Origin: a virus
Taxonomy: Duplodnaviria > Caudoviricetes
IMG/VR virus record: IMGVR_UViG_3300010965_000001
Coordinates: 128,001-192,000 of that record
Reading direction: 5' to 3' (one strand)
DNA length: 64,000 nucleotides
Notes under the pieces: model-generated
The model's input: the letters and a program-made list of their open reading frames with translations, nothing else
The model's database searches: none
Told to the model about the DNA's origin: nothing
Shown here: positions 47,586-62,395 of the stretch, piece by piece
Numbering within the stretch: position 1 is the stretch's first letter
Layout: each line of letters begins with the position of its first letter
Made by a program: the position numbers and the translations under genes

Positions 47586-47604
47586 AGTAACCCTTTTTTG
47601 TTTG

Positions 47605-48217: not shown

Positions 48218-48221
48218 ATGG

Positions 48222-48833: not shown

Positions 48834-48845
48834 ATATTATTTCAG

Positions 48846-48921: not shown

Positions 48922-48954
48922 GATTTAACATATATAAATATACGAAATTTTAAT

Positions 48955-49212
48955 TTAATAATCAAGTGATTTTAACAATTCTTTTAACTTGTTTTTATCG
49001 AGTAAAATCTCATCAAAATCACCGAATTTACATCTATAACCGAAGATATACTTCAATCCGTACCATATCCGTTCAAAGAATGGGCGCGGCGTCAGGTGAA
49101 TTTCAACATCAATTTCATCCTCATACCCGTCCACTACTTGGAATATTACAATATGTTCCGTAGAGTTACATTCACATACCATCAATTTTCGCGTAACCAT
49201 GATTATCTCCAA
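48955..49212 (-). CDS. Hypothetical protein
   Basis: ORF track. Confidence 0.55.
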   Translation of the reverse strand: MEIIMVTRKLMVCECNSTEHIVIFQVVDGYEDEIDVEIHLTPRPFFERIWYGLKYIFGYRCKFGDFDEILLDKNKLKELLKSLDY

Positions 49213-49444
49213 ATATTCTGTTTAATATTTTATAGTGTTCATACAACATTGCATTTTCATTTGACCACCACATATACTGCTTGCCTATTCGTATATAGAT
49301 ATTTTTATTAGTCGCCCTATACACTTCGGATATGGTATCCTCAATTACGACACGTTCGTCACTTTCTGGATTGTGCCCTCCCAACAGTATAACAATGTCA
49401 CCATTTTTGAATTTGTGGTTCATATGATACTCAAATATTTGCAA
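49172..49444 (-). CDS. Hypothetical protein
   Basis: ORF track. Confidence 0.45.
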   Translation of the reverse strand: MQIFEYHMNHKFKNGDIVILLGGHNPESDERVVIEDTISEVYRATNKNIYIRIGKQYMWWSNENAMLYEHYKILNRIFGDNHGYAKIDGM

Positions 49445-50316: not shown

Positions 50317-50336
50317 TGTAGACCTTATATTGTTAG

Positions 50337-50409
50337 TACCCTAGTGCGGAATCGAACCGCCGTCTCAGCTTTGTAAGAGCCACGCCTTATACCACTAGAC
50401 CACAAGGGC
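50337..50409 (-). tRNA. tRNA-Val(TAC)
   Basis: Cloverleaf. Confidence 0.85.
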
Positions 50410-50420
50410 ATTTGTTGTTG

Positions 50421-50492
50421 AGAACGAAATGGGAATTGAACCCATCTAAATGGTTTTGCGGACCATCACCTCAGCCTCTCGGTCATTCGTTC
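50421..50492 (-). tRNA. tRNA-Cys(GCA)
   Basis: Cloverleaf, U73. Confidence 0.85.
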
Positions 50493-50503
50493 ATGTTTTA
50501 TTG

Positions 50504-50575
50504 AGCCCCTTACCCGCATCGAACGGGTGACTTAACTTTACGAGAGTCACATTTTACCAACTAAACTAAAAGGGC
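50504..50575 (-). tRNA. tRNA-Thr(CGT)
   Basis: Cloverleaf. Confidence 0.85.
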
Positions 50576-50583
50576 GTTTCTTG

Positions 50584-50654
50584 CAGTCCTAAATGGTGTT
50601 GAACCACTGTTTTTCGGTTCAGAGCCGAATGTAATACCGTTATACTATAGGACT
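50584..50654 (-). tRNA. tRNA-Gln(CTG)
   Basis: Cloverleaf. Confidence 0.9.
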
Positions 50655-50659
50655 ATTTG

Positions 50660-50732
50660 CAGAGGCAGCAGGGCTCGAACCTACACTTGTACGCCTTCAA
50701 AGGGCGTTGCCATACCATTAGGCGATACCTCT
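50660..50732 (-). tRNA. tRNA-Gln(TTG)
   Basis: Cloverleaf. Confidence 0.9.
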
Positions 50733-50742
50733 AAACCTTTTA

Positions 50743-51111
50743 TTACTTGAACAACTGAGAAGAAATTATAAAATTTGCAGTTGCACGATTACACGCTGTT
50801 GGAACATCATACAGAACTGCAAGTCTAAGTAATGCCTTAACGTCTGGGTCATGTGGATGTGCGTTCATCGGGTCCCAAAAAAATATTAATGCATCGACTT
50901 GTTTATTTGCAATCATTGCACCTATTTCTTGGTCGCCACCGAGCGGTCCAGATTTTTTACGTTCAACCACCAAATCAGTTGCATCGGTGATTAATCCACC
51001 CGTAGTTCCTGTAGCGACTAATGTGTGTTTACTTAAAGTTAATTTATTGAAGACTGCCCATTCCAATAAATCTTTCTTTTTTTCATCATGTGCAATTAGT
51101 GCTATATTCAT
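50743..51111 (-). CDS. mgsA: Methylglyoxal synthase
   Basis: [41 protein letters not shown]. Confidence 0.95.
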
Positions 51112-51258
51112 TCAGTCACTTCCTTAGATTTTAACCACTTAAAATACATTTCCAACCAATCTCCAGACGTATGTTCATCTTTCCACGATGTTTCATCCAT
51201 AAATTGGCTGATGAGGTTTTCCATGTGACATTGAAATTCGACCATTCCCATTTCTTCG

Positions 51259-51801
51259 TTAGTCTGCTCCATGACCTGCCATTTTCTTTTCCTTACCACG
51301 GCAAACATGGTCACTTGCATAACTTGCTGCAGGCGAGTCAGGCTTTGCGTATGCATCGAAACCCATACTCTGAATATATCCCATAGCCTGCTTGTGGATA
51401 ACATTGCTTTCGAAGTTTTCATTTGGGTTTACATCCAAGTGAACTTCAAATGCGGTGATTTTCTTATTATCAAACAAATCAGAATCAGTTAAAATGGACG
51501 CAATATCAACTACTCTGTAAACTTCATCCCAAAGACGATTCTTTAACCTATCTCCCTTTGCCTTACCGTAAATCTTAACATTGTTATCACGCGAAAAGAC
51601 AACGTGTGCACCACGACCAACCTTGTAGATACAAACAACTGTTACATATGTTGCGGCGTCAAAACGACGGGGCTGACTGTCACATCCTACGTAAATTTTA
51701 AATTCAGAAGTAAGTTCATCCTTACGAATGTATTCTTTAATATACTCCGCGATGTTTGGAATCTTCGTTCCCTCTACCGTTTCCCATTTGAATTCTCGCA
51801 T
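51259..51801 (-). CDS. RNase H-like YkuK family protein
   Basis: YVGCDSQ..RLWDEV..EVHLD..KPDSPAASYASD; start MREF. Confidence 0.8.
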   Translation of the reverse strand: MREFKWETVEGTKIPNIAEYIKEYIRKDELTSEFKIYVGCDSQPRRFDAATYVTVVCIYKVGRGAHVVFSRDNNVKIYGKAKGDRLKNRLWDEVYRVVDIASILTDSDLFDNKKITAFEVHLDVNPNENFESNVIHKQAMGYIQSMGFDAYAKPDSPAASYASDHVCRGKEKKMAGHGAD

Positions 51802-51828
51802 AACCTTACTCCTTTGTTTTGTTAGTTG

Positions 51829-51903
51829 TCGGAGTGACAGGATTCGAACCTGCGACCTCATGGTCCCAAACCACGCGCTCTACCAAACTGAGACTACACT
51901 CCG
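51829..51903 (-). tRNA. tRNA-Pro(TGG)
   Basis: Cloverleaf. Confidence 0.9.
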
Positions 51904-52136
51904 ATATATTTACCTTTTAGTGCATTAAAACTTTCTAAATACAATGGTCCTTTACAATTGGGACATCCATGAGAATAATATAATAGATACCAATTCTCAT
52001 ACAAACTGTCAACGAATCGAAATCTATGCTCATGGTTTATAAATGCTTTGCAATTGTAACACCTTATCAGTGGAGCATTTCCAGCATTTATAATTCTAAC
52101 ACAACGTTCTCTAAATTCTTTATATGATAGAGTCAT
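51894..52136 (-). CDS. Small Zn-finger protein, paralog 1
   Basis: MTLSYKEF..CYNC..CPNC..LYLESF. Confidence 0.6.
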   Translation of the reverse strand: MTLSYKEFRERCVRIINAGNAPLIRCYNCKAFINHEHRFRFVDSLYENWYLLYYSHGCPNCKGPLYLESFNALKGKYIGV

Positions 52137-52153
52137 AATCATTTTGTTTATTG

Positions 52154-52228
52154 TCGGGATAGAGAGACTTGAACTCTCACGATACCTTCGCCCCAAACGA
52201 AGTGGCTTGCCAATTAGCCCACATCCCG
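52154..52228 (-). tRNA. tRNA-Pro(TGG), second copy
   Basis: Cloverleaf. Confidence 0.85.
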
Positions 52229-52230
52229 TA

Positions 52231-52458
52231 TTAAAATGCCCTTACAAACTTGTCACCACGTTCATCTTTAGCACATTCTAAATACTTTTGTGAATTACAT
52301 CTAACACATTTACGAATATAGTTATAATTATATAACATATGGAAATCTCCACCAACCTTTATCCACGTTCCACAATAATAACACTTTAATATTGGTATGT
52401 GACGTGCTTTTCTAATTCGGTCAATTCTATCACAAAATTCTTCATAAGATAGTGTCAT
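52231..52458 (-). CDS. Small Zn-finger protein, paralog 2
   Basis: MTLSYEEF..CYYC..CVRC..YLEC. Confidence 0.6.
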   Translation of the reverse strand: MTLSYEEFCDRIDRIRKARHIPILKCYYCGTWIKVGGDFHMLYNYNYIRKCVRCNSQKYLECAKDERGDKFVRAF

Positions 52459-52646
52459 CTTGGTTTTCCCGCAGTAAAACTTTTTAAATATAATTGAGAA
52501 CCACACCGTTTGCATCCACGTTCATATCGAATATATCCACCAGCATTTTCATGTTGAATACATTTATAACAGAATAACAGTGGTGCATGCTGTGCAAGAC
52601 GTATTCTATTAATCCTGTCGTAATATTCATTAAAAGAAAGCATCAT
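52455..52646 (-). CDS. Small Zn-finger protein, paralog 3
   Basis: MLSFNEY..CYKC..CKRC..LYLKSF. Confidence 0.6.
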   Translation of the reverse strand: MMLSFNEYYDRINRIRLAQHAPLLFCYKCIQHENAGGYIRYERGCKRCGSQLYLKSFTAGKPR

Positions 52647-52744
52647 AACATTTATCAATTTTAAAGGTAATCGACATTAGTATGTAACAACATAACTCGT
52701 GTAGTTAGAGGTTTGTCAGGATACTACTCCACAATTACCAATTG

Positions 52745-52822
52745 TACACACAGAAGGACTCGAACCTTCATTTTCAACCATTACCTATAGTCCCGCGTAT
52801 CAGACGGGCTGGATATGTGTGC
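52745..52822 (-). tRNA. Atypical tRNA-Ile(GAT) lacking a canonical D-arm
   Basis: GCACACA/TGTGTGT, CCCGT-CTGATAC-GCGGG, canonical T-arm. Confidence 0.7.
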
Positions 52823-52829
52823 ATTGTTG

Positions 52830-52912
52830 CTCATTAGGTAGGATTCGAACCTACAGGGGCGTTAGCCGTCCGCTTAACAGGCGGGGGAGTTTACCAGTTC
52901 CTCTACTAATGA
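52830..52912 (-). tRNA. tRNA-Asn(GTT) with long variable arm
   Basis: Cloverleaf; 14-nt V region. Confidence 0.8.
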
Positions 52913-52926
52913 ATATAAATTTTTTG

Positions 52927-53008
52927 TGCATTCGGAAGGAGTCGAACCCTCGTTGGATTTCTCCACCGCTTAAGAGGCGGGTGCATAATGCCGTTCTGCC
53001 ACGAATGC
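52927..53008 (-). tRNA. tRNA-Lys(CTT) with long variable arm
   Basis: Cloverleaf; GGA-GAAA-TCC V hairpin. Confidence 0.8.
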
Positions 53009-53016
53009 TTGTTTTG

Positions 53017-53089
53017 TACACCCAGTAGGAGTCGAACCCACCTAATACAATTTAAAAGATTGTTACCTAAACCGCTCGGTCACGGGTGC
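53017..53089 (-). tRNA. tRNA-Lys(TTT)
   Basis: Cloverleaf. Confidence 0.85.
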
Positions 53090-53095
53090 GTGTTG

Positions 53096-53166
53096 TGCAC
53101 CCACAGGGAATCGAACCCTGGTCAATTGATTAAAAGTCAACTGCTTTGCCACTAAGCTATGGATGC
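53096..53166 (-). tRNA. tRNA-Lys(TTT), second copy
   Basis: Cloverleaf. Confidence 0.9.
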
Positions 53167-53295
53167 GTTTATTAACGTCACACCCACTACTTAGTGAATG
53201 CGACCTACCGTTTAGTCATCTTCTTTTTCATTGTGTATATCTCCTTAATTGTCTTTCGCCCCGCTACCATAAGCAATATGCTTAATTTCTTGTTG

Positions 53296-53367
53296 AGCCC
53301 CAGATGGGAGTTGAACCCATGTCTCATCCTTACCAAAGACGCGTTCTACCGTTAGTACTACAAGGGC
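53296..53367 (-). tRNA. tRNA-Thr(GGT)
   Basis: Cloverleaf. Confidence 0.85.
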
Positions 53368-53510
53368 AAATCTGTTAAAAATTTTGTGAGTTTCGGTGTC
53401 CTACGAAGTGCTCTGTTATTTTTCTTTTTATTAAAAACTGCACGTTCATTGGAATCTGCATACTTATTTGTTGCCTTTGTAACAATCTTTTTATACAGTG
53501 CTTTTTGCAT
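53358..53510 (-). CDS. Small basic protein between tRNAs
   Basis: MQKALYKKIVTK..., 50 aa, AAGGA RBS; below track cutoff. Confidence 0.4.
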   Translation of the reverse strand: MQKALYKKIVTKATNKYADSNERAVFNKKKNNRALRRTPKLTKFLTDLPL

Positions 53511-53529
53511 AAAAATCCTTTTTTGTTTG

Positions 53530-53600
53530 AGCCCACTATCGGAGTCGAGCCGATGTCACAACTTTACAAGAGTCGCGTTTTACCGTTAAACTAAGCAGGC
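53530..53600 (-). tRNA. tRNA-Thr(TGT)
   Basis: Cloverleaf; T-loop CTCGACT. Confidence 0.85.
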
Positions 53601-53615
53601 ATGCTGTGTTACTTG

Positions 53616-53690
53616 TAGTGCGTACGGGATTCGAACCCGTGATACCTACCTTGAAAGGGTAGTGACTTAAGCCAGCTTGTCGAACGCACC
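53616..53690 (-). tRNA. tRNA-Glu(TTC)
   Basis: Cloverleaf. Confidence 0.9.
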
Positions 53691-53694
53691 ATAT

Positions 53695-53842
53695 AATATT
53701 TTATAATAGGATTTTCACCTATACGGTCTACCTCTCTCCTAGCTGACCCACTTGGAATTTTACTTCCGTGCCCGACTCGAACGGGGATGGGTGTGACCTC
53801 GATTCAGCTCTAGCGTCTAAATATTTCGCCATATAAAATATT
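53695..53842 (-). ncRNA. tRNA-like RNA with a 57-nt structured insert in place of the anticodon loop
   Basis: 11-bp terminal stem, Leu-type D-arm, AGCTGA/TCAGCT stem, T-arm-like ATAGG-TGAAAAT-CCTAT. Confidence 0.55.
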
Positions 53843-53843
53843 G

Positions 53844-53932
53844 CGGAAGAAAAGAGAATTGAACTCTTAGGACACTTTCATGCCCGACTGTTTAGCAAAC
53901 AGGTCCGACTAACCAATATTCGGCTTTCTTCC
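53844..53932 (-). tRNA. tRNA-Ser(GCT)
   Basis: Cloverleaf, long V arm, G73. Confidence 0.9.
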
Positions 53933-53938
53933 ATGTTG

Positions 53939-54007
53939 TACGGTATTTTGGTTCCGACCCAAATCAACAAGTTTATGATACTCGTTTCGTCTCCTGACGT
54001 ATACCGC
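53939..54007 (-). tRNA. Degenerate CAT-anticodon tRNA-like gene
   Basis: GCGGTAT/ATACCGT, mini D-arm, T-loop GTCGGAA. Confidence 0.5.
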
Positions 54008-54020
54008 GTTAAAACTAATT

Positions 54021-54090
54021 TGGTAGCGGGGCTGGGAACCGCCCCCAGGTAATCTCGGTTATGAGCCGGACTGGCACTCTGCTCCCCGCA
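54021..54090 (-). tRNA. Degenerate tRNA-Met(CAT)-like gene with encoded CCA
   Basis: TGCGGGG/CCCCGCT+ACCA, loop CT-CAT-AA, mini D-arm, T-loop GGCGGTT. Confidence 0.55.
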
Positions 54091-54102
54091 ATATATTCTT
54101 TT

Positions 54103-54176
54103 GTAGCGCGAACGGGATTCGAACCCGTGGTCTGAAGGTTATGAGCCTACTGAGATGACCTCTTCTCTATCGCGCA
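54103..54176 (-). tRNA. tRNA-Met(CAT), initiator-like (1:72 mismatch)
   Basis: Cloverleaf, T1:T72. Confidence 0.85.
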
Positions 54177-54188
54177 GTAATTTCTTTG

Positions 54189-54259
54189 AGCACCGTATCG
54201 GTGTCGAACCGATGACCGTAGTTTGGAAGACTACTATTTTACCGTTAAACTAACAGTGC
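54189..54259 (-). tRNA. tRNA-Gly(TCC)
   Basis: Cloverleaf. Confidence 0.9.
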
Positions 54260-54277
54260 GTTATTTCTGACACTTAT

Positions 54278-54306
54278 AATATACAACTAATTTTCATCAA
54301 TGTCAA
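54278..54306 (-). promoter_or_regulatory. sigma70-type promoter for tRNA run
   Basis: TTGACA-N17-TATATT. Confidence 0.75.
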
Positions 54307-54493
54307 GTTTTTCTTTTCTACGTATTCTTTTTTTACATCGTTCGTATGGAATACCATCTTCCACCTTATAATCTGTTTCTATTACATTTTCACAATCCCA
54401 ACATTCGTGACCCCAATGTCCACCTGCGTTAAACCAATTCCAACAAACATAGATAGATTTACAGTACGGACATTTACGAAATCGATTTTTCAT
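54287..54493 (-). CDS. Small Zn-ribbon protein
   Basis: CPYC..CWDC. Confidence 0.5.
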   Translation of the reverse strand: MKNRFRKCPYCKSIYVCWNWFNAGGHWGHECWDCENVIETDYKVEDGIPYERCKKRIRRKEKLDIDEN

Positions 54494-54494
54494 A

Positions 54495-54677
54495 TTATCC
54501 CTTGTAGAATTTGTTGAGAATTTCTTCTATCTCACCACTTGCCAACATTGTTCCACATTCACAAATGGCTTGAATGTCATATTGATGGTCAATTCCTCCA
54601 TCTGGATTCCACAATGGAGTTTCTTTAATACGTAACTTCCATGTGTGTACATGTTTTTCTTTTTTATCATGTCCCAT
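54495..54677 (-). CDS. Hypothetical protein
   Basis: Start MGHDKK after TATTTATA motif. Confidence 0.45.
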   Translation of the reverse strand: MGHDKKEKHVHTWKLRIKETPLWNPDGGIDHQYDIQAICECGTMLASGEIEEILNKFYKG

Positions 54678-54945
54678 AATAGAACCCTTTATAAATATAA
54701 AAGAATAAAAAATACCCACGATTCTGTATAACGGATACCATTTCTCTATTGGCCGCAACCCGCTCTCATCAATAACAGGAAATGAGTATCTCAAGCTGTT
54801 TGCGTTGCACGCTCTCTTGTAGTTAAACGATTTTCATCAATTCATCGTCTCCGATGGTTGAGATAATCTCCTACTCTTCCTGTTGCGTGTCGTGAGGTTC
54901 CTCACATCCTTTTACAAGGGTAGTGCGGTATCCTATTTTATTCTT

Positions 54946-55018
54946 GTTGCTCGACAGGCTTCGAACCTGTAGTCTCTCGGGTCGCAGCCGAGCATTTTAC
55001 CAATTAAACTACAAGCCA
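54946..55018 (-). tRNA. tRNA-Arg(GCG)
   Basis: CTCGG-CTGCGAC-CCGAG; one acceptor mismatch. Confidence 0.75.
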
Positions 55019-55197
55019 ATTTTCATTCCACCAGCCATAATAACTTGTAATGCCATTTGGTGATGTTCTGGTTTTATTTTTGAAAAATCAAATACCGCGT
55101 CTACTTCTGCACCATTTCCAAAATCAACATATCCTTTTACCATGACTTTTGGTTCTGTCATTACTATACAAATATTATCAATGTCTGCCGTAATCAT
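55009..55197 (-). CDS. Hypothetical protein
   Basis: Start MITAD; longer ORF overlaps tRNA-Ser. Confidence 0.4.
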   Translation of the reverse strand: MITADIDNICIVMTEPKVMVKGYVDFGNGAEVDAVFDFSKIKPEHHQMALQVIMAGGMKIGL

Positions 55198-55220
55198 AAT
55201 ATAACCTTTATGTTGTTCTG

Positions 55221-55311
55221 CGGAAAAGAGAGGATTCGAACCCCCAACCCAGCTTTCGCCAAGAACTGTTTTCGAGACAGTAGCGGTCATCCAGTTACGC
55301 TTTACTCTTCC
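55221..55311 (-). tRNA. tRNA-Ser(CGA)
   Basis: Cloverleaf, long V arm. Confidence 0.9.
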
Positions 55312-55461
55312 ATTTTCGTTCCCATACAGAAACCAATATTGCAAGTGGAAATGCAAACGGTAACAAAAATAATGCTTCTCTACTTGTATATGGTGAACAT
55401 AAATATTTTATGTTATTCCAAAAATTTCTAAATCCCATGATATAACCTTTTTGTTGTTCTG

Positions 55462-55549
55462 CGGAAAGTGAGGGGCTCGAACCCGTCAACTGATTTTTCA
55501 ACCAGCATCTGATTTCCAATCAGACTCCTTGCCAATTCGGTTACTTTCC
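55462..55549 (-). tRNA. tRNA-Ser(GGA)
   Basis: Cloverleaf, long V arm. Confidence 0.85.
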
Positions 55550-55696
55550 ATTATTTTTTACTATCCCACAATGCCCAAATCAATCCAACTAATACGATAG
55601 CGGGTATTGTCCACCAAGGGTCTTCTTTGTTAATCTTAATCTTATTCCAAAATTCTTTTAACAGTTCATTCATTGAAAACCTTTGTTTGTGTATTG

Positions 55697-55779
55697 CGGA
55701 AGATATAGGAGTCGAACCTATACATCCTTTCGGACGGCAGTTTTCAAGACTGCTGCAATAGCCATTATGCGAATCTTCC
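55697..55779 (-). tRNA. tRNA-Ser(TGA)
   Basis: Cloverleaf, long V arm. Confidence 0.9.
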
Positions 55780-55781
55780 AT

Positions 55782-55925
55782 TTAACAATTTGTTTTATAC
55801 TTTCTCACACGACCTTTCCATCTTCGAATACAAATCAAACATGCTTTACTTTCTTTTATCATTTTGCGTATTTTTAACTTCTTGTAGACAGAAGAATTTG
55901 TCGTATTTTTCAAAGTATCAGTCAT
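55782..55925 (-). CDS. Small basic protein between tRNAs
   Basis: MTDTLKNTT..CLIC.. Confidence 0.4.
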   Translation of the reverse strand: MTDTLKNTTNSSVYKKLKIRKMIKESKACLICIRRWKGRVRKYKTNC

Positions 55926-56056
55926 AGTATATTCAGTTATGCGATAGTGAACAGTAATTAAACCTTTACCTCCATAACTCGTTTTGAGTGAGTCAGCGCT
56001 CTGATTTGAACAGGCGATTCGTAGCGTGCAAGGCTCGCGAGGTTTCTCATATTTTG

Positions 56057-56136
56057 TAGACTTGATAGGATTTGAACCTACATTTTCAGCTCCAGTTACG
56101 ATTAAATGTTTCGAAGACATACTCGGCTACAAGTCC
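56057..56136 (-). tRNA. Atypical tRNA-Arg(TCG) lacking a canonical D-arm
   Basis: GGACTTG/CAAGTCT, ATGT-CTTCGAA-ACAT, canonical T-arm. Confidence 0.65.
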
Positions 56137-56351
56137 ATATAAAATTAAACCCAATTGATGCCGTATTCATCTCTGCGGGGTTGCAATGCCTTACGTAAAG
56201 AATGTCTGATAGCACCATCGCCTTTACTACCAAACTGCTCTCGGCTACTGAACTATAAAACCGTCAACCTACACATTAAAGTGCCCAGCCTCCCGATAAC
56301 GATTATGTGATGACCAGGAATCGTTAGTTCATTTACATCTCTTGGGTATTG

Positions 56352-56422
56352 AGCATCGTATCGGTTACGCTCCGATTTTTGTAACTTGGCAAGTTACCAT
56401 TCTACTATTAAATTAACGATGC
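56352..56422 (-). tRNA. tRNA-Gly(GCC) with atypical T-loop (AGCGTAA)
   Basis: All four stems pair; D-loop lacks GG. Confidence 0.75.
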
Positions 56423-56476
56423 ATTTGTGATTCGAAAATTAAAATTCATTATACTTATACATATAAGGAGAATACT

Positions 56477-57076
56477 ATGAAAATACCAATTATATGTGAT
56501 TATTGTGGAAATCCGTCAACAAAATTAAAATATAGCATTACACGATATAAAAATCATTTCTGCTCCAATACCTGTGCTTCCATGTTTCATAGGAATAAAA
56601 TTGAAGTAGAATGTAAATTTTGTGGAAATAAATTTCTAAAATTTGCAAATCAACTAAAAAAACATCCAAACAGTTTTTGTAATAAATCATGTGCTGCTAA
56701 ATACAACAACACACATAAAACACATGGGTCATCTCGTTCTAAACTTGAAGTGTGGTTGGAAAACGAACTTATTACATTATATCCAACTTTGGATTTTCAT
56801 TTCAATCGTAAAGATGCCATCAATTCTGAACTCGACATTTATATTCCATCGTTAAAACTTGCATTTGAACTAAATGGAATCTTTCATTTTGAACCAATTT
56901 TTAGTGAATCTGGGTTAAAGCGAACCAAAGAAAACGATTCAAAAAAATTTAAATTATGCCATGACAATGGAATCAGTTTATGTGTAATCGACACTTCAAA
57001 ACAAAAATATTTTAAAGAACAAACTTCATTACAATATCTAAAAATAATTACAGATATTATTAATATGAAAGTTTAA
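56477..57076 (+). CDS. Free-standing homing endonuclease-like protein, paralog of 45992-46618
   Basis: Near-identical C-terminus ELDIYIPSLKLAFELNGIFH..VIDTSKQKYFKEQTSLQYLKIITDII. Confidence 0.75.
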   Translation: MKIPIICDYCGNPSTKLKYSITRYKNHFCSNTCASMFHRNKIEVECKFCGNKFLKFANQLKKHPNSFCNKSCAAKYNNTHKTHGSSRSKLEVWLENELITLYPTLDFHFNRKDAINSELDIYIPSLKLAFELNGIFHFEPIFSESGLKRTKENDSKKFKLCHDNGISLCVIDTSKQKYFKEQTSLQYLKIITDIINMKV

Positions 57077-57297
57077 ATATTTGCGGTGTGTTGTCATTTA
57101 CACTATTAATTCCGATTTCGAAATTAAATTGAATTTGAGCCAATATCTCCGCATTTACAACTAAATTGTGTCCGTATGCTATCCAGTACATCACGATTTT
57201 CAATCTATCATTTAGGTGCTCATGCATTAGCACAGTAATGGATTTCACGTTGTTCTGAAAATCGAGAGGAATCGAACCTCTTCAACGGACTGTTATT

Positions 57298-57326
57298 AAT
57301 ATACAAAATCTTTTTATCAATGTCAA
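57298..57326 (-). promoter_or_regulatory. sigma70-type promoter
   Basis: TTGACA-N17-TATATT. Confidence 0.75.
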
Positions 57327-57377
57327 CAACTTATTCTGTGATTAAATTGGAGTCGAAATTTAATTTCCAGATACTTG

Positions 57378-57450
57378 TGCGACAGACTTGAGTTGAACAA
57401 GTTCCTGTGGTTTTTCAGACCACCGTGCATACCACCTACACCACTCTCGC
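57378..57450 (-). tRNA. tRNA-Phe(GAA)
   Basis: Cloverleaf. Confidence 0.85.
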
Positions 57451-57658
57451 ATAAAAACGTAGGAATCACGGGTTGTACATGCACGGGTATTTCACTCCCC
57501 ACTATTTCCCGTTGCCCAGTTTAATTGCAACCTATTATATTCACTGTTCGTATACTCTTCTTGCCGCTAAGCAAGTACCCTCTACTTTAAAATGTATTCG
57601 TGAATATCCACTTTACCATACATTGGGATTTTCGTGTTTTAATAGGTATACAGTATAT

Positions 57659-57949
57659 CTATAAAATCTCTACTACCTTTCCATACACACTGCGTGTCCA
57701 TCCATTTATACCACCTCTGTTATTTCCAATCAAACAACCTTTGTGTAAGTCCGTTGCTTTAACTAAGTGCGTATAATAATTTCCATGAACTTTGCAATAT
57801 ACAATGTCTCCAGTCTTAACTTCTAAGAATGTTACAGGAGCGAGTTTATGCTCTTGACCAGACTTAATTAGTGGAACCATTGAATTACCTTTTTCACTGG
57901 TGATAAACGTCTCACCATTTTGTAACTTCTCTAATTTGTAGTTTCTCAT
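57659..57949 (-). CDS. S24/S26 peptidase-like small protein
   Basis: GNSMVPLI..GDIV..HLVK Ser/His pattern. Confidence 0.6.
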   Translation of the reverse strand: MRNYKLEKLQNGETFITSEKGNSMVPLIKSGQEHKLAPVTFLEVKTGDIVYCKVHGNYYTHLVKATDLHKGCLIGNNRGGINGWTRSVYGKVVEIL

Positions 57950-57951
57950 AG

Positions 57952-58033
57952 TGCAGTTACAGAGACTCGAACTCTGACGGATTACTCCACGGGCTTCTTA
58001 GACCCGCATGTTTACCAATTACATCATAACTGC
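57952..58033 (-). tRNA. tRNA-Leu(AAG)
   Basis: CGGGT-CTAAGAA-GCCCG, long V arm, A73. Confidence 0.85.
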
Positions 58034-58042
58034 GTTTTGTTG

Positions 58043-58125
58043 TGTATCGCCAGGGAATCGAACCCCGCGTGTCCTTCCGAACGGGTGGGTTACAGCCACC
58101 TGCCACACCTTGTAGCCTGCGATAC
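58043..58125 (-). tRNA. tRNA-Tyr(GTA)
   Basis: Cloverleaf, long V arm. Confidence 0.85.
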
Positions 58126-58137
58126 ATATTATTACTT

Positions 58138-58209
58138 GACATCCAGAGAGCCTTGAACTCTCATTCCCCACTGAAATGTGAGTTCTTAGTCCGTTTAGAA
58201 GATAGATGT
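58138..58209 (-). tRNA. tRNA-like gene with 6-nt anticodon loop (ATTTCA)
   Basis: ACATCTA/TGGATGT, D-arm, CTCAC/GTGGG, T-arm. Confidence 0.5.
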
Positions 58210-58246
58210 TCCGTGTTATTCACCTGCCCGATGAGGTAACACATTC

Positions 58247-58477
58247 TTAGAATCTTGAAGTATATCTCATTGTTTCTGTTTCGATAGCCTTCTTAATCCA
58301 TTTCATAAAATAAATTGCTTTTTCATCACGAAGGAGAACACCAGTTCCAACTTCTTCAATTGGAATAGGAAATTCATACATATCATTCTCAACCGAAATT
58401 GAGTAATACACTTTTCCTTCTTGATAAAAGGAAAATTGTGCCGTGTTGTTTTCTATAATTTGTTTAATTGTATGCAT
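58247..58477 (-). CDS. Conserved phage hypothetical protein
   Basis: Start MHTIKQII. Confidence 0.55.
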   Translation of the reverse strand: MHTIKQIIENNTAQFSFYQEGKVYYSISVENDMYEFPIPIEEVGTGVLLRDEKAIYFMKWIKKAIETETMRYTSRF

Positions 58478-58495
58478 TGTTTTTCTTTCTGTTTG

Positions 58496-58573
58496 TAGGA
58501 AGAGATGGATTCGAACCATCAGTCTCCGAGTCAATGATTCCCCGGCGTTTTGCGCTTATTAAACTATCTGCCT
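58496..58573 (-). tRNA. tRNA-like gene with 10-nt anticodon loop (GAATCATTGA)
   Basis: Canonical T-arm, CCGGG/CTCGG stem. Confidence 0.55.
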
Positions 58574-58579
58574 ATGTTG

Positions 58580-58650
58580 CGCGTCCTACAGGAGTCGAAC
58601 CCGTGTGAGGAGATTTGGAGTTTCCCATGTTTCCGTTACATCAAGGACGC
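58580..58650 (-). tRNA. tRNA-Trp(CCA)
   Basis: Cloverleaf, G73. Confidence 0.85.
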
Positions 58651-59015
58651 ATTTTTACGTGACGTATTTTATGACAATTTGCACAAATTAAATCACATTT
58701 TTCAATTTCAGTGTTAAAATATGTTTTACCACTATGAATTGCACCAGACACGGACGATAATTTTTTAGACGGCTCTCTGTGATGGAACTCTGCAATTTCT
58801 GGATGCTCATTAAATGATACATTACAGTCCATACAAAATTGTGTTTTTTTCCATTCTATTAATTCTTCTTTTTTCTTTCGTCTGACATCTAACTGCGAAT
58901 CAATTTGATGTTTTTTATTGCGGTAATACCAATCTCTACGGTATTGTCGCATTTTATCTATATTTTCTTCTTTCCATTCTAATGTCGCCATGATATTCTC
59001 CATTTGTTTAACCAC
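58641..59015 (-). CDS. HNH endonuclease
   Basis: CMDC..EFHH..CDLICANCHKIRH. Confidence 0.8.
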   Translation of the reverse strand: MVKQMENIMATLEWKEENIDKMRQYRRDWYYRNKKHQIDSQLDVRRKKKEELIEWKKTQFCMDCNVSFNEHPEIAEFHHREPSKKLSSVSGAIHSGKTYFNTEIEKCDLICANCHKIRHVKMRP

Positions 59016-59080
59016 TATATATAAATAGTAGTATCCAAATGGAAAGTTGTGTTTGGAGACATTATTTGTTAATAAATTTT

Positions 59081-59328
59081 GGATGCTGTTTTACCATTGC
59101 CACTACAAAAAGTCGTTAGACAATCTGGTGGGAGTCGAACCCACAACTTCATCCTTGTTAAATCCTGCCATATGTCCTATCCGTTAGACGATGTTACCCC
59201 GAAGGGCACCACTGGGATTCGAACCCAGATTTTCCAGCCTGTTAAACACGTAGAGTGCTCTGACCACTGAGCTACCGTGCCGTCTTTTGAACGAACACAG
59301 GTGGGATTCGAACCCACGACCTCTCTAC
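59081..59328 (-). ncRNA. Array of three circularly permuted tRNA-like modules
   Basis: Order T-arm, loop-capped acceptor stem, D-arm in each unit; see findings. Confidence 0.7.
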
Positions 59329-59341
59329 TCCTTTTCTTAAA

Positions 59342-59431
59342 TGGGGTGACGAGTGGAATTTGAATCCACGATAGGGTATTATCCCAACGAGGGCCACAAC
59401 CTCGCGCAATTGACCGCTCTGCCATCGTCAC
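59342..59431 (-). tRNA. tRNA-His(GTG) with long variable arm and encoded CCA
   Basis: CGAGG-TTGTGGC-CCTCG, C73. Confidence 0.8.
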
Positions 59432-59433
59432 AG

Positions 59434-59510
59434 CGGTCTGTACGGAGAATGATTCCGTCTGTTTCTCTTCATTGACAGTGAAGCGTCCACACCAAGCAGA
59501 CCCACAGACC
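59434..59510 (-). tRNA. tRNA-Asp(GTC) with atypical T-loop (ATCATTC)
   Basis: GGTCTGT/ACAGACC, G73. Confidence 0.8.
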
Positions 59511-59521
59511 ATATTTATTTC

Positions 59522-59836
59522 TTATTCAATGTATTTATAAAGTGGTAAAAATTTCACGAACTTTGGAAAATTTTCTCTTGGTAAAAGAACACACGCTACT
59601 TCTTGATTACCAAGAGAACTTTCCGTAATTATAACAGACCGTTCAAGATTTTTACATTGTTCAAATGCTTCGTTAGAAACTTTACATACGACTTTTTTGA
59701 ACGAATTCTGCATCCATTCGATGACTTCTGCATCTTCTTTATTCTTGTGGTATGCCGACAATGCCGCATGCGCGCATACAACAGGAACATAATTTGAAGG
59801 AACGTCATCTCTAACTACAATATACATTTTAGACAT
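59522..59836 (-). CDS. Peptidyl-tRNA hydrolase 2 (PTH2)-like protein
   Basis: MYIVVRDD..CAHA..W...FKKVVCKV..LPLY. Confidence 0.75.
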   Translation of the reverse strand: MSKMYIVVRDDVPSNYVPVVCAHAALSAYHKNKEDAEVIEWMQNSFKKVVCKVSNEAFEQCKNLERSVIITESSLGNQEVACVLLPRENFPKFVKFLPLYKYIE

Positions 59837-60633
59837 TATTGTTTCTTTCGTTTACCAATATCTTTAACAACCGCTTTCGTATGGAACTTCCTAATGTCAA
59901 CATCTTGATGACCCTTGAGAAATTCTACAATCCCTTTTAATACACCTACCAACGATTGAACGTCTGCGATTGCCGAATGCCAATTATCAACATTGACTTC
60001 AAGTGCGGTTGATAATTGACCAAGATTAGAATTAATTCTACCGTTTCTTGTCAATGCTCCCAACATTTTTGTTATACCTTCATCACCAGACTTTTCTAAT
60101 GACTGTAATGCCGGGGCGAAATACAACTGTGCAATTTTCAAAGAATCAAGAACTCTAAATCGGTTCATTCGTATTCCATAGTGTTGCCCACGTTGGTTGA
60201 TATATTTCATATCAAATGATGCGTTGTGAGCGATTAATAATGGATTCTCAAATGTTCCTAACCAACCATTAAACTCTTGTAAAACTTGTTGTTCACCTTT
60301 GAATTTTGCGTGACGTTCACCATACTTCGTCATCTTCATAATGTCACGCATCTTCATCGAACCTTTTTTCGGAGGTTCTGTATCTTGAACCTTCATCTTT
60401 GCCTGTGCGTCTTTTCTAAGACTTACTTTTTCATGGAAGATACCAACTTGTTCAAAGGTAGTTCCATCAAATGCGATTGCGGCAACTTCTGTTACTTGTG
60501 TATCAAGATTTTGCGGTTTCAATCCAAGTGTTTCTGTGTCAAAGAATATTAACGTCTGTCCTTCGAACGCCAAAAACTTTTCTAATACTTCCTTGATTGA
60601 TAGTCCGTATATCTTTTTTTCCTGTAATTTCAT
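59836..60633 (-). CDS. DEDDh 3'-5' exonuclease (Pol III epsilon-like)
   Basis: FFDTETLG, AHNASFD, H.AIAD. Confidence 0.85.
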   Translation of the reverse strand: MKLQEKKIYGLSIKEVLEKFLAFEGQTLIFFDTETLGLKPQNLDTQVTEVAAIAFDGTTFEQVGIFHEKVSLRKDAQAKMKVQDTEPPKKGSMKMRDIMKMTKYGERHAKFKGEQQVLQEFNGWLGTFENPLLIAHNASFDMKYINQRGQHYGIRMNRFRVLDSLKIAQLYFAPALQSLEKSGDEGITKMLGALTRNGRINSNLGQLSTALEVNVDNWHSAIADVQSLVGVLKGIVEFLKGHQDVDIRKFHTKAVVKDIGKRKKQ

Positions 60634-60864
60634 TTGATTCTCCCATTAGTGTATATATAAATATGAGTGAATCAAAGTAAAACTATTATAAACGGAGCCG
60701 ATGGGCGGGAATTTTAGTGTCCCGAACATACCGATGTAACATATCCCATCAAAAGGGATATTGCATGCGGATTCTTGTGCCTCATCGGCAAATTGAGGTT
60801 CTTTGTAAATTTTCGATTTCTGGTTCATGCACCTAAGTGAAATGTACGATTTACAAGAAACTTG

Positions 60865-60940
60865 TGGAAGATAAGGGATTTGAACCCTTCTGAAATCCTC
60901 ATTGCAAGTGAGGTGTCCACCCCGAGCAGACCCATCCCCC
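60865..60940 (-). tRNA. tRNA-Ala(TGC)
   Basis: Cloverleaf, G3-U70. Confidence 0.9.
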
Positions 60941-61201
60941 AAGTTTATTTCTATTTTAAAGTAATTGGATTTTTGCGACATCAGAGTTATCGTCGCCCCA
61001 CTTTTTACAACACCAACTACTTTTTTGCTTTGGTGTTACGCCAGTGGGGCTTGATAAAATTCAGGTGTATTACCGTTCGCAAACATGACTCCACTATCAG
61101 CAATGGATGCCGACTGCCATGAGCGTTTTGATTCGGTATGTAAATTCGTCTTTTTCACGATAATCACCTTGAATGAATTTGTTGTTTGTGTATATAATAT
61201 A

Positions 61202-61229
61202 AGTATAAAGAAAAAAAATAAAACGTCAA
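61202..61229 (-). promoter_or_regulatory. sigma70-type promoter
   Basis: TTGACG-N16-TATACT. Confidence 0.55.
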
Positions 61230-61391
61230 TTATTTTACAACTTCCTTGACTTTTTTAATGTCACGAACTGTCACCTTCCAGTCCCGCTTGGGAACGTAGA
61301 TGTGCGTCTTGTCGAGTGTGACGCGGTGTTCTGCGGTATAATCCGAAACCTTAGTGATTTCGTTTGTTTCAATGGATTTAATGCACTTCAT
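61230..61391 (-). CDS. Small hypothetical protein
   Basis: Start MKCIKS after GGAG. Confidence 0.5.
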   Translation of the reverse strand: MKCIKSIETNEITKVSDYTAEHRVTLDKTHIYVPKRDWKVTVRDIKKVKEVVK

Positions 61392-61519
61392 AATTGAATC
61401 TCCGTGATTAATGGTTGACAACTTTTTGAGATGAATAGAATTAACAACTTGTAAACTACTTGTAAACAATATAGGTATTGCTCCTATCAAGTGCTCATTG
61501 CAATTGTTTATAAAAAATT

Positions 61520-62395
61520 AAAAGGTTGAGAGATTACACCTTCTACGCATTTCCTTTTCGTAGATTATAGTGACCTTGCGGGTCAGTTTCCTACTTTCTC
61601 CACCAGCGTTCAGCTCGAGTAGAAATGCATGACTTCCGTTGTTTTTAACGGTGACGGTACCGATATGTATGAGCCTACTCAATCCTTGTCAATTCTCCCT
61701 GCCTTGCGAGCAGTTAATCCTTGCGGGGAATAGATGCAGACTTGAATTAAATTCCTACGCCTTGCGGGTTTCAGAACTCTCCATTCCTTTCGGTGGAGAT
61801 TTAAGCCATTTTTGTTCTCATACATGACCACGACTTTGCTGTTTTTAATTGTCTTGGGATTTGAACCCAATCTTTAGTTCCATATACTAACGCTCAACCA
61901 TTTGAGCTAAGACTGTGCAACTCACAAAAGACGTGCGTGGTCAGTGGTTCCATTCTCTTTTGGAAAACGATATGCCACACGCCCTGTATCTTTCGTCTGC
62001 TCGACTACTCAACGGATTTTCAAGATTTTGGTGCTTATGGAACAACCACACCAACACCAACCTCTTTCAATCTAAATAGAAGCCCTTATTTTGCATCACT
62101 CGGACAACTACTCTCCCCTTCATTTCTCGTTCATCGTCTCGTTTGGTATCTGCTTACTCGGCACCACCCGCTAGTCCAGTCCTACGGAGTTACCCTCGGT
62201 CTGTTCGCAGCGAAACTTCTGACATACTTCCAGCAGGATTAGTGGCTGAAAGACTCCGAAACTCGGTTTGCATAAGTGACCAATTGAGATTGGCGACGCC
62301 CTGTGAGCGGGTTAAGTCTTTTACCATATTACTACGGCTTATCTTCTCCCTTGCGGGAATGGATGTCATACCACCCATTTTAAACTTTATAATTC
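61520..62395 (-). ncRNA. Large ornate ncRNA, GOLLD-like
   Basis: About 870 nt with no credible ORF, five C-GCAA-G hairpins, embedded tRNA-like domain, own sigma70 promoter, U-rich 3' end; family call not confirmed by a covariance model. Confidence 0.65.

What the first reader, a model, noticed from the sequence alone, without database searches (positions are those of the whole stretch)
59081..59328. Three tandem circularly permuted tRNA-like modules with capped acceptor stems and open anticodon ends
Seen on the minus strand right after tRNA-His CCA. Each unit runs 3'-anticodon strand, V, T-arm, acceptor 3' strand, short loop, acceptor 5' strand, D-arm, 5'-anticodon strand. Unit 1 (59328-59250): GTAGAG/CTCTAC 6 bp, CTGTGTT/GGCACGG 7 bp, AAAA cap. 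Unit 2 (59238-59167): TGGTGCCC-UUCG-GGGTAACA, a cUUCGg cap. Unit 3 (59154-59081): GGATG/CATCC, GTC-TAAC-GAC cap. Spacers share TTTAA(C/G)A. Read linearly, the halves give mismatched chimeras. Known: permuted tRNA genes occur in some algae and archaea, and the tRNA-like module of bacterial YrlA Y RNAs has this topology, but no Ro/TROVE gene or long Ro-binding stem is present here. Inference: either a phage array of mimics of anticodon-cleaved tRNA (decoys for nucleases, ligases or sensors), or permuted pre-tRNAs matured through a circular intermediate.
Basis: partly seen in the sequence, partly recalled or inferred. Interest (0 to 1): 0.92.

Follow-up and report, generated by a model that had tools for sequence, protein, structure and literature searches.

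The report
Three back-to-front tRNA look-alikes in phage
A large T4-like phage from peat carries three tandem tRNA-shaped modules with a closed acceptor end and no anticodon loop; they resemble the tRNA-like part of bacterial Y RNAs, but no Ro protein partner is present, only the first module is well formed, and no related phage could show that they are conserved.

Summary
The observation largely holds. On the minus strand after tRNA-His there are three tandem units. Each runs T arm, hairpin-closed acceptor helix, D arm, and is closed by pairing of its own two ends.

- **Unit 1 (59328-59250)** is a complete permuted cloverleaf. Its terminal helix is 6/6 Watson-Crick, its acceptor 7/7, and its fold z-score is -2.6. 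It matches the tRNA-like core of Rfam YrlA at 36 bits, below the 69-bit cut-off.
- **Unit 3** keeps a 5-bp terminal helix but has a weak D stem and acceptor.
- **Unit 2** has a C(UUCG)G-capped acceptor but only a 3-4 bp terminal helix.
- **Control:** in 58 genuine tandem-tRNA junctions, no such cross-half helix reached 5 bp.

The 210-kb genome has no TROVE/Ro60 gene, no RtcB gene and no Ro-binding motif. DUF7873 did not appear in any ORF I scanned. No anticodon loop can be rebuilt from the flanks.

My best reading (0.45) is that these are non-decoding, Ro-independent tRNA-body mimics derived from tRNA halves and made together with the phage tRNAs. The main rival (0.33) is debris from tRNA-gene rearrangement. 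The nearest relative whose DNA could be read lacks the array, and no covariation or RNA data exist. This scan has noted YrlA-like permuted modules on other DNA many times.

Verdict: a new variant of a known kind, of moderate interest.

The parts
59250..59328 (-). Unit 1, an intact permuted tRNA-like body. Terminal helix GUAGAG/CUCUAC, V AGGUC, T arm 59317-59301, acceptor 3' strand 59300-59294, cap 59293-59282, acceptor 5' strand 59281-59275, D arm 59272-59257.
   Evidence: The fold is a permuted cloverleaf at -27.9 kcal/mol, z = -2.6. YrlA RF02553 scores 36.2 bits over model positions 19-90. ARAGORN calls it a tRNA in every re-permuted construct. G15-C48 and all elbow nucleotides are present (read).
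59167..59239 (-). Unit 2. T arm 59228-59212, 8-position acceptor hairpin 59211-59192 closed by C(UUCG)G, D arm 59189-59174, weak terminal helix GCUG/UGGC.
   Evidence: Fold (z = +0.15). Terminal helix is 2 Watson-Crick pairs, 4 with G-U. The D-arm region is 19/21 identical to the island's tRNA-Arg(UCU). No YrlA hit.
59081..59154 (-). Unit 3. Terminal helix GGAUG/CAUCC, T arm 59144-59128, acceptor hairpin 59127-59106 (7 of 9 pairs, UAAC loop), degenerate D arm 59103-59088.
   Evidence: Fold (z = -0.8). YrlA scores 21 bits, which is no better than plain tRNA junctions (17.9 and 28.5 bits). Terminal helix is 5 Watson-Crick pairs.
59335..59341 (-). Linker motif TTTAAGA between tRNA-His and unit 1.
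59240..59246 (-). Linker motif TTTAACA between units 1 and 2.
59156..59162 (-). Linker motif TTTAACA between units 2 and 3.
59204..59281 (-). The overlapping 'linear' reading, made of the 5' half of unit 1 plus the 3' half of unit 2. It is called tRNA-Asn(GUU) but lacks an anticodon stem.
   Evidence: ARAGORN. Rfam tRNA 41 bits, with the anticodon arm unaligned. Acceptor pairs 6/7. Anticodon-stem helix is 2 bp.
59342..59431 (-). Upstream neighbour: tRNA-His(GUG) with a long variable arm and an encoded CCA.
58641..59015 (-). Downstream neighbour: an HNH homing endonuclease gene. Its family sits next to tRNA-Trp in the three other contigs I could read.
   Evidence: PHROG HNH hits. Contexts.

Best explanation
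The stretch encodes a tandem array of circularly permuted, non-decoding tRNA-like bodies. Each unit runs T arm, hairpin-closed acceptor helix, D arm, and is closed by a short helix between its own 5' and 3' ends at the place of the anticodon stem. AU-rich UUUAAC/G linkers lie between units.

Shown: this topology for units 1 and 3; the capped acceptor and intact elbow nucleotides (U8, R15-Y48, G18G19, T54-Psi55-C56, A58, G53-C61) in all three units; and the absence of an anticodon loop, an encoded CCA or a Ro partner.

Inferred:
- The array is transcribed with the minus-strand tRNA island and cut out at the linkers.
- Each unit folds into an L-shaped tRNA body that cannot be charged or decode.
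- It acts as a tRNA-body mimic, as the tRNA-like module of YrlA does, but independently of Ro60.
- The likely ligands are factors that read the elbow plus the acceptor/T helix: RNase P, the neighbouring RNase T-like exonuclease and CCA-adding pathway, T-loop and D-loop modifiers, or host tRNA-directed defence or repair proteins.
- The units arose from tRNA halves by tandem duplication. Unit 1 is under the tightest constraint, and units 2 and 3 are diverging or decaying.
For: Structure:
- Unit 1 folds as a permuted cloverleaf and aligns to the tRNA-like core of YrlA.
- Cross-half terminal helices of 6 and 5 Watson-Crick pairs compare with a maximum of 4 in 58 control junctions. Within-'linear-tRNA' helices are only 2 bp.
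- Same-unit acceptor pairing is 7/7, 6/7 and 5/7; one cross-unit pair, the first 'linear' chimera, also reaches 6/7.
- Elbow and Levitt-pair nucleotides are kept in all three units, although the units share only 39-50 of about 75 positions.
- The terminal and acceptor helices differ in sequence between units yet stay complementary, which is paralogue covariation.
- In a peat relative, a 1-base deletion at 59295 removes the bulged U and makes the unit 1 cap a perfect 10-bp helix.

Genomic setting:
- No minus-strand promoter or terminator separates the array from its neighbours.
- The context is a tRNA and RNA end-processing island: an RNase T-like DEDD exonuclease and PTH2 upstream, cREC, SAK-HAD and a YkuK-like RNase H-like protein (PF04308), and an Rnl2-type ligase domain elsewhere.
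- In relatives, the exonuclease sits beside a CCA-adding enzyme.
- Genuine phage YrlAs next to TROVE genes also score only 31-41 bits on the Rfam model.
- A related contig (L036, PTH2 68% identical) carries two further modules of the form T arm, acceptor 3' strand, spacer, acceptor 5' strand, D arm, with 7/7 pairing.
Against: - No orthologous array was found. Searches of phage records, IMG/VR and metagenome contigs all came back empty.
- The nearest relative with readable DNA (L029, exonuclease 57% identical) has an ordinary ORF after tRNA-His. Conservation and true covariation are therefore unproven.
- Units 2 and 3 do not fold better than shuffled sequence.
- The YrlA model gives 28.5 bits on a plain tRNA-tRNA junction, so unit 1's 36 bits is only modestly above a known false positive.
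- Junction hairpins arise trivially between paralogous tandem tRNAs.
- No partner protein has been identified.
- The acceptor helices run on beyond the 1:72 pair, so RNase P processing is uncertain.
Confidence: 0.45

Rival explanations
1. The array is non-functional debris from tRNA-gene rearrangement. Tandem duplication of tRNA genes and loss or exchange of halves, in an island full of homing endonucleases, left half-tRNAs whose complementarity is inherited rather than selected.
For: - Three HNH or homing-endonuclease genes lie within 3 kb.
- The halves resemble island tRNAs. Unit 2's D arm is 19/21 identical to that of tRNA-Arg(UCU), and unit 2's 3' end resembles tRNA-Lys.
- The caps of units 1 and 3 still contain the island's usual 3' trailer words CAA and CUA.
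- Units 2 and 3 have decayed helices.
- The array is absent after tRNA-His in the L029 relative.
- Paralogous neighbours such as Lys-Lys give junction hairpins for free.
Against: - Inherited complementarity predicts that each tRNA keeps its own anticodon stem and loses pairing with its neighbour. The opposite is seen: 6 and 5 bp across halves against 2 and 2 bp within the linear tRNAs, and 0 of 58 controls reach 5.
- Making three different permuted units side by side needs several independent duplication and deletion events, or one duplication followed by compensatory change.
- The elbow nucleotides are intact in all three units.
- The C(UUCG)G cap looks designed.
Confidence: 0.33
2. The units are permuted or split tRNA genes. 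RNase P, 3' trimming and CCA addition would open the caps. Ligation or simple association of the halves would then give working, possibly two-piece, tRNAs.
For: - The 3' half lies upstream of the 5' half on one strand, as in algal permuted tRNA genes.
- M. smegmatis YrlA, which has a 7-bp capped acceptor, is cut by RNase P and receives CCA in vivo (PMC4201824, read).
- The phage has an RNA-ligase-domain protein.
- The L036 modules carry the normal N73-CAA/CUA trailer inside the cap and a hairpin upstream of the T arm.
- This lineage tolerates odd tRNA topologies (first-stage notes).
Against: - No unit has an anticodon hairpin.
- No choice of flanking bases gives a consistent 7-nt loop with U33 and R37.
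- The linkers between terminal helices are 11-12 nt.
- There is no RtcB.
- Every amino acid is already served by another tRNA, counting the non-canonical tRNA-Asp found here and the Ile genes (first-stage notes; read by eye).
- The acceptor helices are paired beyond position 1:72, and units 1 and 2 lack the trailer in register.
Confidence: 0.07
3. The units are true Y RNAs that use a host-encoded Ro60 (Rsr). In that case the phage supplies only the RNA.
For: The topology is the same as YrlA, and unit 1 is the best YrlA-model hit in the genome. Phage YrlAs are known from 22 Ro-encoding phages (PMC4201824).
Against: - There is no GNCGAAN0-1G motif and no long terminal stem.
- Scores are below the cut-off.
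- There is no TROVE gene in the phage.
- The host is unknown, so host Rsr could not be checked.
Confidence: 0.07
4. The array is cis-acting processing punctuation. tRNA-like bodies would recruit RNase P or RNase Z to separate tRNA-His from the HNH mRNA, or to stabilise that mRNA's 5' end.
For: The array lies exactly between tRNA-His and the HNH gene with no promoter or terminator. tRNA-like punctuation is an established principle in mitochondrial transcripts and in mascRNA (my knowledge).
Against: One module would be enough. Homologous HNH genes in other contigs have ordinary tRNAs, not such modules, upstream. The capped acceptors offer no normal RNase P site.
Confidence: 0.08

Closest known systems
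YrlA (Y RNA-like A, Rfam RF02553), the tRNA-like Y RNAs bound by bacterial and mycobacteriophage Ro60/Rsr (Chen et al. 2014, PMC4201824)
   Same: The arm order is the same: T arm, loop-capped acceptor-like helix, D arm, with the RNA's ends at the anticodon side. The T-loop and D-loop elbow are canonical. Unit 1 aligns to model positions 19-90. YrlA also occurs in phages, sometimes several in tandem.
   Different: All units score below the cut-off (36, 21 and no hit, against 69 bits). There is no long Ro-binding stem, no GNCGAAN0-1G motif and no TROVE gene anywhere in the 210-kb genome. The units are minimal (72-79 nt), directly abutted, and embedded in a tRNA array.
Circularly permuted tRNA genes of Cyanidioschyzon merolae, some green algae and Thermofilum pendens (my knowledge; cited in reviews listed)
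   Same: The 3' half lies upstream of the 5' half on the same strand, and the acceptor strands are joined by a short spacer.
   Different: Those genes rebuild a complete anticodon loop through a BHB-directed circular intermediate. Here no anticodon loop can be assembled, and no splicing endonuclease or RtcB was found.
Dimeric or tandem tRNA junctions, the known false positive of YrlA searches (PMC4201824)
   Same: A T arm followed by a D arm, and a junction hairpin when the neighbours are paralogues.
   Different: In real arrays each tRNA keeps its own anticodon hairpin. Here the anticodon-stem strands pair across the unit rather than within a linear tRNA.
Ro-independent permuted tRNA-like RNAs noted earlier in this scan, such as two-headed RNAs next to DUF7873 (unpublished AI notes)
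   Same: Permuted, acceptor-capped tRNA look-alikes inside phage tRNA clusters, without Ro.
   Different: DUF7873 was not found in any of the roughly 120 ORFs I scanned. There are no long stems, and the array has three short units rather than one RNA of 330-400 nt.
Small stable RNAs encoded in the phage T4 tRNA cluster (species 1 and 2; from my memory, not checked here)
   Same: Non-tRNA stable RNAs made from the tRNA gene cluster of a T4-type phage, with unknown function.
   Different: Neither sequence nor structural relationship was tested.

Membership tests
YrlA (RF02553) | Covariance-model score at or above the gathering score (69 bits) | tested here: not met
   Unit 1 scores 36.2 bits, unit 3 scores 21 bits and unit 2 has no hit. 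Phage YrlAs next to TROVE genes also score only 31-41 bits, and a plain tRNA junction scores 28.5 bits.
YrlA (RF02553) | tRNA-like module ordered T arm, capped acceptor helix, D arm | tested here: met
YrlA (RF02553) | Long terminal stem carrying the Ro-binding motif GNCGAAN0-1G | tested here: not met
   The motif is absent from 58900-59520 on both strands. The terminal helices are only 4-6 bp.
YrlA (RF02553) | Encoded within about 4 kb of a Ro60/TROVE gene | tested here: not met
   PF05731 is absent from the whole 210,562-base record. tblastn with two phage TROVE proteins finds nothing.
YrlA (RF02553) | Bound by Rsr; carries tRNA-type modifications | not testable with these tools
   Needs biochemistry.
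Circularly permuted tRNA gene | 3' half upstream of 5' half on one strand, with the halves mutually complementary in the acceptor and anticodon stems | tested here: met
   Clearly met for unit 1, mostly for unit 3 and only weakly for unit 2.
Circularly permuted tRNA gene | Joining the ends yields a 7-nt anticodon loop with U33, an anticodon and R37 | tested here: not met
   All flank combinations were tried. No consistent loop appeared and the anticodon calls vary arbitrarily. The linkers are 11-12 nt.
Circularly permuted tRNA gene | BHB motif with a splicing endonuclease and ligase for circularisation | tested here: inconclusive
   No RtcB. An Rnl2-type ligase domain is present. I did not search for a BHB motif or an endonuclease.
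Canonical tRNA (RF00005) | Model score at or above 29 bits | tested here: met
   The linear reading 59281-59204 scores 41 bits.
Canonical tRNA (RF00005) | Anticodon stem-loop | tested here: not met
   The 22-nt anticodon region does not pair; the longest helix is 2 bp.
DUF7873-linked double tRNA-like RNA (this scan's earlier notes) | Adjacent DUF7873 protein gene of about 245 aa | tested here: not met
   Not among the Pfam families reported for 58 ORFs of 190-320 aa, 41 ORFs of 321-750 aa (25 of 28 families listed) or the island ORFs.

The most novel reading that the evidence does not exclude
This T4-like peat phage lineage may have evolved its own family of permuted or split tRNA-type genes. 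Under this reading the caps are opened by RNase P and by the phage's RNase T-like exonuclease plus CCA enzyme. That would give two-piece tRNA bodies. The anticodon-less versions in this window would serve as Ro-independent decoys or scaffolds. The L036-type versions, which carry a hairpin upstream of the T arm, might even decode.
Probability: 0.12. Interest if true: 0.85.

Novelty: new variant of a known kind. Interest (0 to 1): 0.45.

Why it matters
If functional, these would be minimal tRNA-body mimics that work without Ro60 and are made in the same transcript as a phage's own tRNAs. That would extend the Y-RNA/YrlA design principle to a new setting. It would also point to an unknown partner, such as a processing enzyme, a repair factor or a host tRNA-directed defence protein.

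The array also shows a plausible route by which permuted tRNA-like RNAs arise from tandem tRNA genes. If it is debris, it is a useful caution: phage tRNA islands can produce convincing YrlA-like false positives.

Tried and rejected
Searches for orthologues that found nothing:
- blastn of the region against 50,697 phage records.
- Peptide-seeded searches with the exonuclease and PTH2 in IMG/VR and JGI metagenomes.
- Exact or degenerate DNA patterns for unit 1 in IMG/VR and metagenomes.
- A two-T-loop plus TTTAASA pattern, which found only ordinary tandem tRNAs.

Relatives reached through homologous proteins:
- L029 and L037/L038 lack the array.
- L034 and L035 are the same phage at 100% identity.
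- Several contigs gave no DNA.

Sequencing runs:
- No RNA holder is listed.
- Peat-metagenome contigs laid on the region are mostly tRNA T-arm matches from other organisms or identical short pieces. One 369-nt contig overlaps unit 1 with a single-base deletion and two other differences.

Partner genes not found:
- TROVE, RtcB and DUF7873.
- The MoxR-like AAA protein and 744-aa protein at genome 9-12.7 kb look like a CobS/CobT-type pair, not Ro.

Other dead ends:
- The MAFFT alignment of the three units is not structurally correct. I therefore made pair counts by script rather than with the count of structure pairs.
- ARAGORN on re-permuted units is a lenient test, because 8 of 60 chimeric controls were also called tRNA.
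- The whole-array MFE pairs T arms with each other and is not informative.
- Reading the UUUAAC/G linkers as anticodon loops (U33-UUA-A37) or as displayed Asn/Lys codons is numerology without a closing stem. I did not pursue it.

Full report
**Setting**

The window is bases 128,001-192,000 of a 210,562-base IMG/VR virus record that CheckV rates complete. The phage is T4-like, with Gp23 capsid, Gp20 portal and T4 baseplate proteins. Near-identical pieces occur in peat and sediment metagenomes.

All 34 ARAGORN tRNAs, a tmRNA and a GOLLD RNA lie on the minus strand between window positions 42 and 62 kb. The finding sits between tRNA-His(GUG) (59431-59342, encoded CCA) and an HNH endonuclease gene (59015-58641). 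An RNase T-like DEDD exonuclease and a PTH2 peptidyl-tRNA hydrolase lie just upstream.

**Checking the observation**

The sequence is as described.

- **Unit 1 (59328-59250)** folds on its own into a permuted cloverleaf. It has a 6-bp terminal helix GUAGAG/CUCUAC, a 5-nt variable region, and a canonical T arm. Its 7-bp acceptor helix is extended and capped by a CAAAA loop, and it has a canonical D arm. Energy is -27.9 kcal/mol, z = -2.6.
- **Unit 2** has an 8-position acceptor hairpin closed by C(UUCG)G and good T and D arms. Its terminal helix is only 3-4 bp with G-U pairs and is out of register. Its fold is no better than shuffles.
- **Unit 3** has GGAUG/CAUCC and an acceptor hairpin with two U-U mismatches, but only 2 of 4 D-stem pairs.
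- **All three units** keep the tRNA elbow nucleotides: G18G19, the UUCGA(A/C)U T loop and G53-C61. The Levitt pair covaries with the unit: G15-C48 in unit 1, and A15-U48 in units 2 and 3.

**Is it more than chance?**

Junction hairpins are not diagnostic by themselves. The two adjacent tRNA-Lys genes of this same island give a -11.5 kcal/mol junction hairpin. In addition, 6 of 56 true tandem junctions pair at least 6/7 across the junction.

The discriminating feature is the anticodon-side helix. I examined 58 true junctions from this genome and eight other phage loci. The longest Watson-Crick helix between the anticodon-stem 3' strand of one tRNA and the 5' strand of the next was never 5 or more. 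Units 1 and 3 have 6 and 5. The two 'linear' readings (5' half of one unit with the 3' half of the next) have 2 and 2, like the null. So the pairing logic of a normal tRNA array is inverted here for two of the three units.

The region is not an assembly artefact. Two Logan contigs from two runs match it 100% across the array.

**What it is not**

- *Ordinary tRNAs.* ARAGORN and Rfam call 59281-59204 a tRNA (41 bits), because it has good D and T arms and a 6/7 acceptor. Its 22-nt anticodon region does not pair. The second linear chimera has no acceptor at all.
- *A Ro-dependent Y RNA by any testable criterion.*
  - There is no TROVE gene in the genome.
  - There is no GNCGAAN0-1G motif.
  - The terminal stems are short.
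  - Scores are below the cut-off.
- *On the Rfam scores.* These need care in both directions.
  - Two IMG/VR contigs with YrlA-like RNAs beside TROVE genes score only 31-41 bits.
  - A plain Leu-Asn junction in a megaphage scores 28.5 bits.
  - A Glu-Thr junction in this genome scores 17.9 bits.
  - Chen et al. (PMC4201824) explicitly discarded dimeric tRNAs as false positives and required a Ro60 gene within 4 kb.
- *A permuted tRNA gene that matures into a decoder.* No combination of flanking bases yields a consistent 7-nt loop with U33, and RtcB is absent. No isotype is missing. The apparently absent tRNA-Asp is a non-canonical gene at 59510-59434 that folds as a cloverleaf with a CUGUCAA loop and has a recognisable homologue in L029.
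- *The DUF7873-linked RNA of earlier notes.* DUF7873 was not found among about 120 ORFs scanned.

**Origin**

The halves look derived from island tRNAs.

- Unit 2's D-arm region is 19/21 identical to that of tRNA-Arg(UCU), and its 3' end resembles tRNA-Lys.
- Of the 39 T-arm-bearing elements I examined in the island (genes, orphans and the three units), 24 are followed by N73-CAA and 8 more by CUA or CUG. Only three carry CCA.
- The caps of units 1 and 3 still contain CAA and CUA.
- The three phased TTTAAC/G-A linkers suggest that a permuted unit, once formed from a tandem tRNA duplication, was itself duplicated with its linker.
- The helices then changed sequence while staying complementary.

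**Relatives**

No orthologous array was found. The relatives examined were:

- **L029** (exonuclease 57% identical) keeps Ala-Asp-Asp-His but follows His with an ORF.
- **L037/L038** have protein genes after PTH2.
- **A peat contig** overlaps unit 1 and carries a one-base deletion that removes the bulged U of the cap, making a perfect helix. This is a weak hint of structural constraint.
- **L036** (PTH2 68% identical) is more interesting.
  - It holds two modules in which a T arm and acceptor 3' strand are followed by the usual N73-CAA/CUA trailer and a 16-17-nt spacer. Then comes an orphan acceptor 5' strand plus D arm that pairs 7/7 with the upstream strand.
  - The acceptor sequences differ between the two modules, while the flanks are conserved.
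  - Permuted tRNA-type modules therefore recur in this lineage.

**Mechanism and odds**

I commit to non-decoding, Ro-independent tRNA-body mimics (0.45). They would be transcribed with the tRNAs, excised at the AU-rich linkers, and folded into L-shapes whose elbow and acceptor/T helix can engage tRNA-body readers.

The neighbourhood fits this. It holds an RNase T-like exonuclease, which in relatives sits beside a CCA-adding enzyme, and PTH2. It also holds cREC, SAK-HAD and a YkuK-like RNase H-like protein (PF04308). Together these make tRNA end-processing, repair or competition with host tRNA-directed factors the most plausible arena (compare PMC7824862). No step of the function has been shown.

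The alternatives are rearrangement debris (0.33), cis-acting punctuation (0.08), split or permuted tRNA genes (0.07) and host-Ro-dependent Y RNAs (0.07).

**Novelty**

The YrlA topology and phage YrlAs are published. A stemless, Ro-less, three-unit array inside a tRNA operon is a variant I did not find described. This scan has already noted many permuted tRNA-like modules in other genomes. With no conservation or expression data, and two weak units, I rate it of moderate interest.

Noticed in passing
window 59434-59510 (-): A non-canonical tRNA-Asp(GUC) that both ARAGORN and Rfam missed. It has a 7-bp acceptor, a 6-bp D stem with a 5-nt loop, a CUGUCAA anticodon loop, and a T arm with an AUCAUUC loop in place of TPsiC. 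Its discriminator is G, followed by CUG. A homologous, recognisable tRNA-Asp sits in the same place in L029. The 5' part of this gene recurs in many peat-metagenome contigs.
   Followed up: partly
window 42000-62000 (-), all T-arm-bearing genes: Of 39 T-arm-bearing elements in the island (the three units included), 24 are followed by N73-CAA and 8 more by CUA or CUG. Only 3 encode CCA. The same trailer occurs in megaphage LR745206 and in L029 and L036. An RNase T-like exonuclease is encoded in the island, and in relatives it sits next to a CCA-adding enzyme. Together these suggest a lineage-specific route for maturing tRNA 3' ends.
   Followed up: partly
L036:300-445 and L036:850-985 (+): A related contig (PTH2 68% identical) has two modules. 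Each runs T arm, acceptor 3' strand, N73-CAA/CUA, a 16-17-nt spacer, then an orphan acceptor 5' strand plus D arm that pairs 7/7 with the upstream strand. The flanks are conserved and there is a hairpin upstream of the T arm. These are possibly permuted or split tRNA genes.
   Followed up: partly
L005:100-590 (same as L007): Three to four tandem Y-RNA-like units that share a CTTCCTTCTAA 5' strand and an ATCA(T/A)T..CACC 3' strand. Two carry permuted tRNA-like modules (YrlA 40 bits). A 687-aa protein with no Pfam family follows them. No TROVE gene is present in the partial contigs.
   Followed up: partly
genome 12790-13030 (-), outside the window (L021): A promoter-like site followed by an RNA of about 170 nt with a 7-bp acceptor (AGUCGGU/ACCGACU), a canonical T arm and an A-CAA trailer. 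It is flanked on both sides by the direct repeat TTTGGTAACAATTTGGTAACA, just upstream of a CobT-like protein and MoxR-like AAA pair. Rfam tRNA scores only 19 bits.
   Followed up: partly
window 57260-57330 (-): A strong sigma-70-like promoter (TTGACA, 17 nt, TATATT) followed by an orphan T arm plus acceptor 3' strand with no 5' half nearby. A complementary GAAAAUCG lies about 75 nt downstream.
   Followed up: no
window 58641-59015 (-); L031, L032, L033: This HNH endonuclease family sits directly beside tRNA-Trp in all three other contigs that I could read, one of which has EF-Tu next to it. This suggests a homing site at the tRNA-Trp locus.
   Followed up: partly
window 45201-45304, 48829-48932, 52728-52831, 55204-55307, 56040-56143 (-): Further T-arm-bearing genes that ARAGORN did not call. 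They are tRNAs with unusual architecture, matching the 'rewired' tRNAs in the first-stage notes. One has a 6-8-nt loop containing AUC and an encoded CCA.
   Followed up: no
genome-wide: A Por_Secre_tail (T9SS sorting) domain in one phage protein hints at a Bacteroidota host. The phage also carries Mom-family, DruA-like and sugar-nucleotide biosynthesis genes.
   Followed up: no
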